The position numbers and the translations under genes are program-made. A stretch of DNA of 18,873 nt from a virus: IMG/VR virus record IMGVR_UViG_3300025133_009823. The stretch is one strand, 5' to 3'. Positions 3,517-3,873 of the stretch are shown one piece after another. Numbering within the stretch: the first letter of the stretch is position 1; each line of letters opens with the position of its first letter. The notes under the pieces were generated by a model, which worked only from the letters and a program-made list of their open reading frames with translations, did no database searches and was not told the origin of the DNA.

Positions 3517-3873
3517 TTAGTTTTTGATGTCTCGAAGAGCTAGAGGATAATTGCTCGTAACTCGACGGCCTTCGCGCGTGGGTTCAATAGCAATCGCAGT
3601 GATCGCATTGTCGAAATCTGGCTCTCGGAAGATTGAATATGCCAACTCTCTATCCTCGCACCGCATTGCCAATTTGACTAGCTCGTCTTCATTGGGTGCA
3701 GCCAAGCAGGCCAGGTAACGGGAATTTTGATACCACATTCGGTCAAGCTCTGGGTGCTCCTCCGAAAAGAGTCTCATTGCGTGTGCCACTTGTGCCACCT
3801 GGGCACCTGGACGAAGATCCCTTCGCGTCACAATGTAGAGCTTGTCGCCTTCTTTGATTTCGTACTAAGCCAT
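3517..3873 (-). CDS. PTH2-family peptidyl-tRNA hydrolase with an in-frame TAG at codon 3 (M-A-TAG-Y-E-I-K-E-G-D-K-L-Y-I-V-T-R-R-D-L...)
   Basis: The track ORF starts at GTG 3829-3831 (MTRRDLRPGAQVAQVAHA...), matching the Pth2 core (vVRtDLxMGKGKxaAQcxHA...vvKVnSEEEL...). The same frame upstream encodes KLYIV, the conserved first beta-strand, and reaches ATG 3871-3873 only through TAG 3865-3867. An AGAGAA RBS-like sequence precedes that ATG. Confidence 0.55.

What the first reader, a model, noticed from the sequence alone, without database searches (positions are those of the whole stretch)
3517..3873. Pth2-type peptidyl-tRNA hydrolase whose conserved N-terminal beta-strand is reachable only by reading through a TAG at codon 3
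Homology to Pth2 (KLYIVTRRDLRPGAQVAQVAHA against [25 protein letters not shown]) extends 6 residues upstream of the only in-frame canonical start after the TAG (GTG 3829-3831). The next ATG upstream (3871-3873, with an AGAGAA RBS-like sequence) is followed by GCT and then TAG 3865-3867. Two CUA suppressor tRNAs are encoded ~100-200 bp downstream on the same strand. This is direct local evidence that UAG is translated in this genome. Pth2 is also the archaeal/eukaryotic-type peptidyl-tRNA hydrolase, unusual in a bacterial virus.
Basis: partly seen in the sequence, partly recalled or inferred. Interest (0 to 1): 0.75.

Follow-up and report, generated by a model that had tools for sequence, protein, structure and literature searches.

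The report
Stop-codon gate on phage Pth2 gene
A phage peptidyl-tRNA hydrolase gene starts with Met-Ala-STOP, so the full enzyme can probably be made only when the phage's own stop-codon-reading tRNA is present; the same arrangement recurs in about 90 distinct large-phage genes and I found no published description of it.

Summary
On the minus strand the gene reads ATG 3873-3871, GCT, TAG 3867-3865. An open frame then runs to TAA 3519-3517 and encodes a Pth2-fold protein. Its invariant first strand, KLYIVTR, begins upstream of the only canonical start after the TAG (GTG 3831-3829).

The TAG is not a local accident. Among 161 unique homologues from large-phage contigs, 89 carry a TAG 1-12 codons before KLY. 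It usually follows a 2-3-codon ATG leader with a Shine-Dalgarno-like motif.

- 70 of these 89 have a tRNA-CUA within 3 kb.
- The rare TAA- and TGA-gated genes sit beside tRNA-UUA and tRNA-UCA. Gate and anticodon match in 73 of 73 loci where both are seen.
- TAG remains an ordinary stop. Three window genes end in TAG, and a gated 462-kb relative gains no coding density when TAG is read as sense.

The best reading is a gene-specific translational gate that depends on a suppressor tRNA. It is not whole-genome recoding.

The two tRNA-CUA genes lie 113 nt upstream and 660 nt downstream, not 100-200 bp downstream. Pth2 in jumbo phages is already known.

I found no published description of the gate. 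The reason Pth2 in particular is gated remains inferred.

The parts
3517..3873 (-). Full pth2-like reading frame: Met-Ala-TAG, then 115 codons, then TAA. It gives a 118-residue product if the TAG is decoded.
   Evidence: sequence and translation. (PF01981, 35.4 bits against a cut-off of 23). (AlphaFold pLDDT 95.4; the top 14 Foldseek PDB hits are all Pth2, TM 0.55-0.77).
3871..3873 (-). ATG, the proposed true initiation codon of a two-codon leader (Met-Ala).
   Evidence: Of 54 gated homologues, 49 have an ATG 1-4 codons before the gate stop (30 at exactly 2 codons) and the other 5 at 6-8 codons. 42 of 54 have a Shine-Dalgarno-like motif before that ATG. In the window itself the SD is weak.
3865..3867 (-). 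In-frame TAG at codon 3, the 'gate'.
   Evidence: The same TAG is present in an independent assembly. 89 of 161 unique homologues carry a TAG at the equivalent N-terminal place.
3829..3831 (-). GTG, the only canonical start after the TAG. It is rejected as the functional start because it cuts strand beta-1 after four of its seven residues.
   Evidence: SD-like GAAGG lies 16 nt upstream, which is too far.
3832..3852 (-). Codons for E-G-D-K-L-Y-I, the conserved N-terminal motif and the start of strand beta-1. Canonical initiation after the TAG cannot reach them.
   Evidence: K, L and Y are invariant in alignment A1. The motif aligns to residues 2-11 of 2zv3. The modelled strand spans residues 8-14.
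3987..4061 (-). tRNA with anticodon CUA (amber suppressor), 113 nt upstream of the pth2 ATG. It has a perfect cloverleaf, discriminator A and an encoded CCA.
   Evidence: ARAGORN; Rfam tRNA 68.7 bits; sequence.
2784..2856 (-). Second tRNA with anticodon CUA, 660 nt downstream of the pth2 stop, just after the PLD-like gene that ends in TAG.
   Evidence: (63.3 bits).
3908..3981 (-). Degenerate tRNA-like element between tRNA-CUA and pth2, ending 34 nt before the ATG. It may be a processing signal that sets the 5' end of the pth2 mRNA (inferred).
   Evidence: Rfam tRNA 33.9 bits, gathering score 29. ARAGORN does not call it. It has an odd anticodon loop and T arm.
5395..6073 (-). Context: RF1-like release factor lacking domain 1, made through a prfB-style +1 frameshift. 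It is a possible phage-encoded competitor of tRNA-CUA at UAG. Whether it belongs to the gate is inferred.
   Evidence: (prfA model 193.7 bits, one stretch across the junction; the site is conserved in relatives).

Best explanation
The window's pth2-like gene is translated from ATG 3873-3871. After fMet-Ala the ribosome meets UAG (3867-3865). One of the phage's own amber-suppressor tRNAs (anticodon CUA, 3987-4061 or 2784-2856) decodes it in competition with release factor 1. Only then is the 118-residue enzyme made with an intact first strand of the Pth2 fold.

The stop codon therefore works as a translational gate. Pth2 synthesis is tied to the presence, amount and charging of the suppressor tRNA. 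Placing the gate at codon 3 means a failed attempt costs only a dipeptide.

What is shown:
- the sequence anatomy;
- the Pth2 fold;
- conservation of the gate across deeply diverged homologues;
- physical linkage to a suppressor tRNA whose anticodon matches the gate's stop codon;
- in a gated relative, TAG is otherwise an ordinary stop (in the window, three genes end in TAG).

What is inferred:
- that readthrough actually happens;
- which amino acid is inserted;
- the purpose. My favoured purpose is to match the dose of a peptidyl-tRNA-recycling enzyme to suppressor activity or to expression of the tRNA array. That part is speculative.
For: 1. Residues upstream of the GTG are part of the protein.
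- K8, L9 and Y10 are invariant.
- Pfam gains 5 bits with the extension.
- The motif aligns to the N-terminal strand of solved Pth2 structures.
- The modelled strand beta-1 is residues 8-14.

2. The gate is conserved. 89 of 161 unique homologues have a TAG 1-12 codons before KLY.
- The leader is 2 codons in 30 of 54 genes examined and 3 codons in 11 of 54.
- An SD-like motif precedes the ATG in 42 of 54.
- Gated proteins share as little as 29% identity, median 47%.
- The nearest relative, L086 (67% identity), reads MMS*EEIKLGDKLY and has three tRNA-CUA genes nearby.

3. In L003, L167 and L005 the first ATG/GTG/TTG after the TAG is 85, 67 and 47 codons downstream. No functional protein could start after the TAG in those genes.

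4. The gate is linked to a matching suppressor tRNA.
- 70 of 89 TAG-gated genes have a tRNA-CUA within 3 kb, against 14 of 65 ungated genes (Fisher p = 1.3e-12).
- The tRNA often lies 8-60 nt after the pth2 stop.
- The TAA-gated gene (L024) sits beside a tRNA-UUA. TGA-gated genes L158 and L344 have a tRNA-UCA in the locus.
- Gate and anticodon match in 73 of 73 loci where both are present.

5. This is not whole-genome recoding.
- LR756500 (462 kb, gate MK*) has coding density 0.867 under the standard code and 0.866 with TAG as sense. It has one suppressor tRNA, next to pth2.
- In that genome pth2 is the outlier in a scan for ATG-leader-stop-long-frame arrangements.
- The Lak-A1 positive control jumps from 0.36 to 0.79.
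- Neighbours of the TAA- and TGA-gated genes use TAA and TGA as stops.

6. TAG-gated genes avoid TAG as their own terminator: 2 of 52 against 12 of 41 ungated, p = 9e-4.

7. The TAG is present in an independent assembly.
Against: - There is no direct evidence of readthrough: no proteomics, no ribosome profiling and no cultured host.
- In the window, the SD before the ATG is weak.
- The base after the TAG is T, whereas 52 of 54 homologues have a purine there.
- Near-cognate starts (ATC 3858-3856, ATT 3834-3832) lie between the TAG and KLY and cannot be excluded.
- 19 of 89 TAG-gated genes show no tRNA-CUA within the DNA held (up to 3 kb each side). Many of these sit on short contigs.
- 22 of 65 ungated genes also have a suppressor tRNA nearby, so linkage is not exclusive to gated genes.
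- The TAA and TGA cases are few: one and two or three lineages.
- Only one relative's whole genome was surveyed. The rest of the window's own genome is unavailable, so recoded late genes elsewhere cannot be excluded.
- The family lacks the GKGK loop of archaeal Pth2 and scores far below the NCBIfam Pth2 equivalog cut-off (27.4 against 126). Peptidyl-tRNA hydrolase activity is therefore itself unproven.
Confidence: 0.8

Rival explanations
1. Ordinary genome-wide recoding (genetic code 15). On this view the phage reads every TAG as an amino acid, as Lak and crAss-like phages do, and the codon-3 TAG is just one sense codon among many.
For: - Suppressor tRNAs are the hallmark of recoded phages (bioRxiv 10.1101/2021.08.26.457843; PMC13037316).
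- In such phages, recoded codons concentrate in late genes that may lie outside this 18.9-kb window.
- LR756501's pth2 has a second TAG at codon 37.
Against: - Three window genes end in TAG, and the 919-codon frame has no internal TAG.
- A whole 462-kb gated relative gains nothing under TAG-as-sense, and 28 of its 553 open frames end in TAG.
- 40-kb regions of two further huge phages behave the same way, while the Lak-A1 control responds strongly.
- A random sense codon would not sit at codon 2-4 of one gene in about 89 lineages and nowhere else in it.
- Neighbours of the TAA- and TGA-gated genes use those codons as stops.
Confidence: 0.07
2. The TAG is simply an upstream stop. On this view translation starts after it, at GTG 3831-3829 or at a near-cognate ATC or ATT, and the upstream conservation is a remnant of an older start.
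For: - Gene callers chose such starts for P0004, P0005 and P0001.
- In cultured mycobacteriophages Bxz1 and Myrna, a GTG directly follows the TAG with good SD spacing and is the annotated start.
- After the gate stop, 24 of 54 homologues have ATT, ATC or ATA.
Against: - A GTG start removes invariant K, L and Y and four of the seven residues of strand beta-1.
- In three relatives no canonical start exists for 47-85 codons.
- The SD-like motif is placed for the ATG before the stop, not for the codon after it.
- The I/V after the stop is also conserved as an internal residue in ungated proteins such as MATIKMGDKLY.
- This view does not explain why the stop type matches the neighbouring suppressor anticodon.
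Confidence: 0.07
3. A regulatory mini-ORF that does not depend on the suppressor tRNA. On this view Met-X-stop acts like the two-codon 'bar' minigenes of phage lambda or an upstream ORF. The ribosome terminates or drops off and then reinitiates, so the leader senses peptidyl-tRNA hydrolase or release-factor activity rather than tRNA-CUA.
For: - The two-codon leader plus stop has the form of lambda bar minigenes, whose toxicity depends on host Pth (my own knowledge, not checked here).
- The gene being regulated is itself a peptidyl-tRNA hydrolase.
- Leaders are very short in 45 of 54 genes.
Against: - Reinitiation would not require the leader to be in frame with pth2. It would not predict a match between stop type and suppressor anticodon (73 of 73). 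It would not predict avoidance of TAG as the gene's own terminator.
- In many members no usable start follows the stop.
Confidence: 0.05
4. The gene is a pseudogene or the TAG is a sequencing error, so the gene is dead or the TAG is not real.
For: A stop at codon 3 is what a null mutation looks like. Public gene calls for this family are truncated.
Against: - The identical TAG is present in an independent assembly.
- The rest of the frame is intact, highly conserved and models at pLDDT 95.4.
- The same feature recurs in about 89 distinct genes, at 29-99% identity among the 56 compared.
Confidence: 0.01

Closest known systems
Stop-codon recoding in phages with phage-encoded suppressor tRNAs (code 15 or code 4 phages such as Lak and crAss-like; the 'code change module' of Borges et al., bioRxiv 10.1101/2021.08.26.457843)
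   Same: A phage-encoded suppressor tRNA decodes an in-frame stop codon in a phage gene. The codon is proposed to make that gene's expression depend on the suppressor. A release-factor gene lies in the same region.
   Different: Here TAG is not reassigned. It remains a terminator, and coding density does not change. One codon in one small gene, always at the extreme N-terminus, is affected. That gene is a translation-recycling enzyme physically linked to the tRNA, not a lysis or structural gene. Borges et al. do not mention Pth.
prfB (release factor 2) autoregulation through an in-frame UGA early in the gene
   Same: An in-frame stop codon near the start of a translation-factor gene makes its synthesis depend on the balance between termination and an alternative decoding event.
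   Different: prfB uses a +1 frameshift and senses its own product. Here the event is in-frame suppression by a dedicated tRNA, and no feedback from Pth2 onto the gate has been shown. A true prfB-style site does occur 2 kb away in the window's RF1-like gene.
Archaeal and eukaryotic Pth2 (PF01981; structures 2zv3, 1wn2, 3erj, 1xty, 1q7s) and the PTH2 genes already noted in jumbo phages (PMC7824862) and cluster C mycobacteriophages
   Same: The fold is the same (TM 0.55-0.77). The sequence passes the Pfam family threshold. The N-terminal strand and the QxxHA helix motif are shared. The genes sit among phage tRNA genes.
   Different: This is a divergent subfamily. It scores 27.4 bits against the NCBIfam equivalog cut-off of 126. 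The GKGK loop is replaced by a shorter P-G, and 'RDAG' by 'rEPD'. The stop-codon gate has not been described for any of them.
Lambda bar minigenes (two-codon ORFs whose expression is toxic when host Pth is limiting; my own knowledge)
   Same: SD, then AUG, then one sense codon, then a stop. There is also a functional connection with peptidyl-tRNA hydrolase.
   Different: bar minigenes end there. Here a conserved protein continues in frame, and a matching suppressor tRNA is encoded alongside.

Membership tests
Pth2 / PF01981 peptidyl-tRNA hydrolase family | Sequence match above the Pfam gathering threshold | tested here: met
   35.4 bits against a cut-off of 23 with the N-terminal extension, and 30.3 bits from the GTG. 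The family profile hits seven solved Pth2 sequences, E 6e-8 to 7e-3.
Pth2 / PF01981 peptidyl-tRNA hydrolase family | Pth2 alpha/beta fold | tested here: met
   AlphaFold2 pLDDT 95.4, pTM 0.88. The Foldseek PDB top 14 hits are all Pth2 structures, TM 0.55-0.77 (0.65-0.77 for the crystal structures), rmsd 2.2-4.6 A.
Pth2 / PF01981 peptidyl-tRNA hydrolase family | Complete N-terminal strand beta-1 (KxxxVxRxDL) | tested here: met
   Met only if the TAG is decoded. The strand is residues 8-14 of the post-TAG frame, and GTG is residue 12.
Pth2 / PF01981 peptidyl-tRNA hydrolase family | Equivalence to archaeal Pth2 (NCBIfam NF003314 equivalog cut-off) | tested here: not met
   27.4 bits against a cut-off of 126. 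The best PHROG is 1866, 'unknown function', at 67.7 bits. This is a divergent phage subfamily, not an equivalog.
Pth2 / PF01981 peptidyl-tRNA hydrolase family | Catalytic residues. From memory of S. solfataricus mutagenesis these are the Lys of the GKGK loop and the Asp of RDAG; I did not verify this here. | tested here: inconclusive
   The GKGK loop is replaced by a shorter, nearly invariant P-G. An invariant E81-P82-D83 aligns with RDAG. Q25 and H28 are conserved as in QxxHA.
Pth2 / PF01981 peptidyl-tRNA hydrolase family | Hydrolysis of peptidyl-tRNA | not testable with these tools
   This needs an enzyme assay or complementation of an E. coli pth(ts) strain.
Stop-codon-recoded (code 15) phages | The reassigned stop occurs in frame in many genes, and coding density rises under the alternative code | tested here: not met
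   In the window, three genes end in TAG and the 919-codon frame has no internal TAG. The density test on the window itself was uninformative. LR756500 as a whole genome gives 0.867 against 0.866. L166 to L168 are unchanged, while the Lak-A1 control goes from 0.36 to 0.79. The rest of the window's genome is not available.
Stop-codon-recoded (code 15) phages | Phage-encoded suppressor tRNA for the reassigned codon | tested here: met
   Two tRNA-CUA genes.
Gene-specific programmed stop-codon readthrough | An in-frame stop conserved at the same place in diverged orthologues, with conserved coding sequence downstream and no alternative start | tested here: met
   89 of 161 unique genes, with identity down to 29% among the 56 gated proteins compared. 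The first start after the stop is 47-85 codons away in some.
Gene-specific programmed stop-codon readthrough | A decoding agent matched to the stop codon | tested here: met
   TAG with CUA in 70 loci, TAA with UUA in 1, TGA with UCA in 2, and no mismatch. Fisher p = 1.3e-12 for TAG gate against tRNA-CUA.
Gene-specific programmed stop-codon readthrough | A readthrough product observed | not testable with these tools
   No proteomic or ribosome-profiling data are available.
Lambda bar-type minigene | SD, then AUG, then one or two sense codons, then a stop | tested here: met
   The leader is 2 codons in 30 of 54 genes, 3 in 11 and 1 in 4. An SD-like motif is present in 42 of 54. The window has Met-Ala-stop with a weak SD.
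Lambda bar-type minigene | Stand-alone ORF with nothing functional in frame after the stop, and Pth-dependent toxicity | tested here: not met
   A conserved Pth2 protein continues in frame. Toxicity cannot be tested here.

The most novel reading that the evidence does not exclude
The suppressor tRNA and the gated pth2 form a self-contained two-part cassette, and licensing Pth2 is the tRNA's main or only job in the genome. This appears to be the case in the 462-kb phage LR756500: one suppressor tRNA, one clear client gene, and the standard code everywhere else.

The cassette would then be a natural stop-codon switch that reports tRNA expression and charging, or the balance between suppressor and release factor. 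It would release a peptidyl-tRNA- or ribosome-recycling enzyme only in that state. That would explain why phages that use the standard code carry suppressor tRNAs at all. In the window, a phage RF1-like factor with its own prfB-style frameshift could set the threshold.
Probability: 0.35. Interest if true: 0.9.

Novelty: new variant of a known kind. Interest (0 to 1): 0.8.

Why it matters
1. It gives suppressor tRNAs a concrete, testable job in phages that keep the standard code. So far such tRNAs have been read as stepping stones toward recoding.
2. It links two parts of translation not previously connected in phages: stop-codon suppression and peptidyl-tRNA recycling.
3. It corrects annotation. 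Public gene calls for this family are truncated or mis-started (P0001, P0004, P0005, P0008). Suppressor tRNAs in cultured phages are labelled 'tRNA-OTHER' (Bxz1) or 'tRNA-Ser' (Myrna).
4. A compact natural switch is of practical interest for genetic-code engineering. It consists of a leader, a stop codon and a matching tRNA, and natural variants exist for all three stop codons.
5. Cultured relatives carry the pth2 and tRNA-CUA pair, so experiments are possible (Bxz1 and Myrna in Mycobacterium smegmatis).

Tried and rejected
- Close relatives in the phage collection: megablast of the whole window found only short tRNA matches.
- The window's own contig: exact-protein look-ups of two window proteins found nothing. 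The rest of the genome could not be examined.
- Greedy-ORF coding density on the 52% GC window and the 12-kb loci was uninformative, because spurious open frames fill the gaps. The test works only on AT-rich genomes, where Lak-A1 served as the positive control.
- A second gate on the release-factor gene ('MLGP*YV') turned out to be a frame artefact of a +1 frameshift gene.
- Other gated genes: none in the window or in L002, L003, L005, L166 to L168. In LR756500 there are only weak candidates, at 254760-255836 and 394639-395049.
- A fusion-by-readthrough model, with the TAG as the stop of a long upstream gene, holds only for a minority. The upstream in-frame stretch is at most 10 codons in 14 loci, 11-30 in 18 and more than 30 in 21. 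In the window, the open in-frame stretch upstream of the leader overlaps the tRNA-like element.
- Amino-acid identity of the suppressors could not be settled. The tRNA-CUA scaffolds are diverse. The window's two are most similar to Lys(CUU) and Arg tRNAs at only 75-76%. The aligned position in ungated proteins is variable.
- The purine after the stop (52 of 54) cannot be separated from the conserved Ile/Val residue that follows.
- Literature: eight full-text searches found no description of a gated pth2 or a pth2-suppressor cassette.
- ARAGORN with intron and tmRNA options did not resolve the odd tRNA-like elements.
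Full report
OBSERVATION

On the minus strand the window reads ATG (3873-3871), GCT, TAG (3867-3865). It continues TAC GAA ATC AAA GAA GGC GAC AAG CTC TAC ATT, then GTG (3831-3829), and runs to TAA (3519-3517). GTG is the only canonical start between the TAG and the body of the protein.

The homology to Pth2 extends upstream of the GTG.
- Pfam PF01981 matches at 35.4 bits (profile positions 2-102) when the upstream residues are included. 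From the GTG it matches at 30.3 bits (profile 14-102).
- In an alignment of 12 homologues, K8, L9 and Y10, all upstream of the GTG, are invariant.
- A profile of that alignment hits seven solved Pth2 sequences. It aligns KLYivtrrDl to residues 2-11 (KMVVVIRNDL) of 2zv3.
- An AlphaFold2 model (pLDDT 95.4) places strand beta-1 at residues 8-14, which is KLYIVTR.
- The top 14 Foldseek PDB matches are all Pth2 structures, with TM 0.55-0.77 (0.65-0.77 for the crystal structures).

An independent ENA assembly carries the same ATG GCT TAG TAC and has one SNP elsewhere in the gene.

They lie at 3987-4061, which is 113 nt upstream of the ATG, and at 2784-2856, which is 660 nt downstream of the stop. 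Both are on the same strand and both are strong tRNAs, at 68.7 and 63.3 bits on the Rfam model.

THE GATE IS A FAMILY FEATURE

The first five related loci from IMG/VR already showed the pattern:
- L003 reads MS*IHEGDKLYVV.
- L005 reads MT*NKLYIV.
- L001 and L002 read MMLLDKT*TQNTDKLYVV.
- L004 reads MTPDSKLYII, with no stop.

Homologous proteins that gene callers had predicted without trouble all start a few residues upstream of GDKLY. Those from gated genes had been truncated to 'MVTRKDL' or 'VTRKDL'.

After two viral-contig scans, one metagenome scan and three huge-phage genomes from GenBank, I had 248 loci and 161 unique genes.
- 89 genes have a TAG 1-12 codons before KLY, and 87 of these have no ATG, GTG or TTG in between.
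- One gene has a TAA there.
- Three have a TGA, plus one doubtful case.
- 65 genes have a normal start.

I examined 54 gated genes in detail.
- The ATG lies 2 codons before the stop in 30 genes, 3 codons in 11, and 1 or 4 codons in 4 each.
- The commonest leaders are MS, MT and MCL.
- A GGAG-type motif precedes the ATG in 42 of 54.

The residues right after the stop, (I/V)-K-x-G-D, are conserved as internal residues in ungated proteins such as MATIKMGDKLY. They are therefore translated sequence.

In L003, L167 and L005 the first canonical start after the TAG is 85, 67 and 47 codons downstream, so no functional protein could begin after the TAG. Gated proteins share as little as 29% identity (median 47%). 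A rough neighbour-joining tree needs at least eight gains or losses. The window's closest relative, L086 at 67% identity, reads MMS*EEIKLGDKLYIV.

LINKAGE AND COVARIATION WITH SUPPRESSOR tRNAs

- Of the 89 TAG-gated genes, 70 have a tRNA-CUA in the locus (up to 3 kb of flank held on each side). Of the 65 ungated genes, 14 do (Fisher p = 1.3e-12).
- The tRNA is usually on the same strand and often 8-60 nt after the pth2 stop.
- The TAA-gated gene (L024/L094, MA*NKLY) is overlapped at its end by a tRNA-UUA.
- TGA-gated L158 has a tRNA-UCA 88 nt downstream, and TGA-gated L344 has one 3.2 kb away. The third TGA case, L155, sits on a short contig.
- Wherever both a gate and a suppressor tRNA are seen, stop and anticodon match. 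That is 73 of 73 loci.
- The tRNA scaffolds are diverse, so the match is functional and not merely inherited.
- TAG-gated genes end in TAG only 2 times in 52, against 12 in 41 for ungated genes (p = 9e-4). This is expected if they are translated while TAG is leaky.

NOT WHOLE-GENOME RECODING

- In the window, three genes end in TAG: the PLD-like gene at 2898-3503, 8991-9782, and the 919-codon frame at 12198-14957. The 919-codon frame has no internal TAG.
- In 40-kb regions around the gated pth2 of three huge phages, a greedy-ORF density test gives the same value with TAG as stop or as sense. The Lak-A1 control rises from 0.36 to 0.79.
- I fetched the whole 462-kb genome LR756500. Its density is 0.867 against 0.866. 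Stops are TAA 453, TGA 72 and TAG 28. It has 26 tRNAs, and the single suppressor (CUA) lies about 800 nt from pth2.
- In a genome-wide scan for ATG-short-leader-stop-long-frame arrangements, pth2 is the outlier. There are at most two weak further candidates.
- Neighbours of the TAA- and TGA-gated genes use TAA and TGA as terminators.

MECHANISM

Shown:
- the anatomy of the gene;
- the Pth2 fold;
- conservation of the gate;
- linkage to a suppressor tRNA and the match between stop and anticodon;
- in the relatives tested, the standard code elsewhere in the genome.

Inferred:
- The ribosome starts at the ATG, makes a dipeptide, and at UAG either terminates through RF1 or accepts the phage tRNA-CUA.
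- Only the second outcome yields Pth2.
- Placing the gate at codon 3 minimises waste and avoids truncated protein.

Why Pth2 is gated remains open. The region is an island of translation and RNA-repair genes. It holds 41 tRNAs, an RlaP nucleotidyltransferase, a metallophosphatase, a methyltransferase and an RF1-like factor. Iyer et al. proposed that phage PTH2 clears peptidyl-tRNA from jammed ribosomes (PMC7824862).

My favoured reading is dose-matching. Pth2 would be made in proportion to suppressor activity or tRNA-array expression, for example to cope with readthrough-induced stalling and drop-off. An alternative is a safety catch on a potentially harmful hydrolase. Neither has been tested.

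RIVALS

- Whole-genome recoding is contradicted as described above.
- A start at the GTG or at a near-cognate codon removes invariant residues, is impossible in several relatives, and does not explain the anticodon match.
- A suppressor-independent minigene or reinitiation device resembles lambda bar in form. It predicts neither the in-frame arrangement nor the covariation.
- A pseudogene or sequencing error is excluded by the independent assembly and the conservation.

COMPARISON WITH WHAT IS KNOWN

- PTH2 in jumbo phages and mycobacteriophages is already known.
- Suppressor-tRNA-dependent expression of phage genes is the central idea of the phage recoding literature. That literature concerns many codons in late genes of recoded genomes, and it does not mention Pth.
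- Eight full-text searches found no description of a gated pth2 or of a cassette pairing pth2 with a suppressor tRNA.
- I therefore class this as a new variant of a known kind.
- The protein is a divergent Pth2-fold subfamily. It passes Pfam but scores 27.4 against 126 on the NCBIfam equivalog. It lacks the GKGK loop, so the enzymatic activity itself needs testing.

SIDE FINDINGS

The main side finding is an RF1-like gene lacking domain 1, at 6073-5395. It has a prfB-style +1 frameshift site, GGAGG TCC CTT TGA C. The reconstructed protein matches the prfA model in one stretch across the junction (193.7 bits). At least eight related phage genes keep the site. The remaining side findings are listed separately.

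VERDICT

The core interpretation is supported and considerably extended. Interest is 0.8. Confidence that the TAG is decoded by the phage suppressor tRNA to make full-length Pth2 is 0.8. The biological purpose is unresolved.

Noticed in passing
window 5395-6073, minus strand; frameshift site 5973-5960: An RF1-like release factor lacking domain 1 is encoded in two frames. ATG 6073-6071 opens 'MKSIIVEIRAGEGG...CERRSL', which ends at TGA 5962-5960 within GGAGG TCC CTT TGA C, the same form as the E. coli prfB +1 frameshift site. The +1 frame continues through '...RIPPSEKRGRVHTS...GPGGQ...' to TAA. The joined protein matches NCBIfam prfA at 193.7 bits in one stretch (residues 2-224), against 116 bits for prfB. 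The codon-recognition tripeptide is PPS, not PxT or SPF. At least eight related phage genes keep 'GGAGG..CTT TGA' at the same place.
   Followed up: partly
window 12198-14957, minus strand: A 919-codon frame carries a Major Vault Protein shoulder domain (PF11978, 94.7 bits) and a Vault_3 repeat (36.1 bits). This is a vault-like protein in a phage. It ends in TAG.
   Followed up: no
window 3908-3981 and about 4068-4216, minus strand: Two odd tRNA-like elements. The first scores 33.9 bits on Rfam tRNA but has an irregular anticodon loop (CTTAACA) and T arm, and it ends 34 nt before the pth2 ATG. The second is about 150 nt, with an acceptor stem (CCGCCGGG...CCCGGCGG-A-CCA) and a T arm but a long insert. 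Neither ARAGORN (including intron and tmRNA modes) nor Rfam calls it.
   Followed up: partly
window 4221-4296 and 15584-15670, minus strand: A tRNA with anticodon UCA (opal-suppressor type, Rfam 55.3 bits) has an unusual T loop (TGCAAAT). I found no TGA-gated gene in the window. ARAGORN also reports a 'tRNA-???' with a two-base anticodon at 15584-15670.
   Followed up: no
window 1-942, 1043-2140, 2898-3503, 7983-8804, 8991-9782, minus strand: RNA-repair and translation context: a metallophosphatase (cut at the window edge), RlaP (an RNA-repair-pathway nucleotidyltransferase), a PLD-like protein ending in TAG 41 nt before tRNA-CUA, a SAM methyltransferase, and a NUMOD3 homing-endonuclease-like protein.
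   Followed up: no
L184 (Mycobacterium phage Bxz1, NC_004687 94756-95509) and L169 (Myrna, NC_011273 33036-33593): Cultured cluster C mycobacteriophages have 'GAAGGC ATG TAG GTG' (Bxz1) and 'GGAGGC GTG TAG GTG' (Myrna) at the pth2 start. The annotated start is the GTG after the TAG. A tRNA with anticodon CUA lies 130-300 nt downstream and is annotated 'tRNA-OTHER' or 'tRNA-Ser'. These phages are possible experimental systems.
   Followed up: partly
L181 (Xanthomonas phage Xoo-sp13 gp327), L182 (Stenotrophomonas phage RAS14), L155, L344: The Pth2 domain is fused to an uncharacterised domain with an HD-like motif (HDxGKP ... NHA ... FGG..S.SFK.K). The extra domain is N-terminal in Xoo-sp13 and RAS14 and C-terminal in L155 and L344. 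The same protein is the separate upstream neighbour of gated pth2 in 13 loci. It has no Pfam match.
   Followed up: partly
L166 (LR756501, 735-kb huge phage) about 19986-20369: This pth2 has the codon-3 gate (MS*IYKLIVV) and a second in-frame TAG at codon 37. Two tRNA-CUA genes lie about 2 kb downstream. The surrounding 40 kb shows no general TAG recoding.
   Followed up: partly
L170 (Prevotella phage Lak-A1, MK250015 about 284263-294529): The TAG-recoded Lak-A1 phage has an ungated pth2-like gene and a tRNA with anticodon UUA (ochre-suppressor type) about 700 nt upstream.
   Followed up: no
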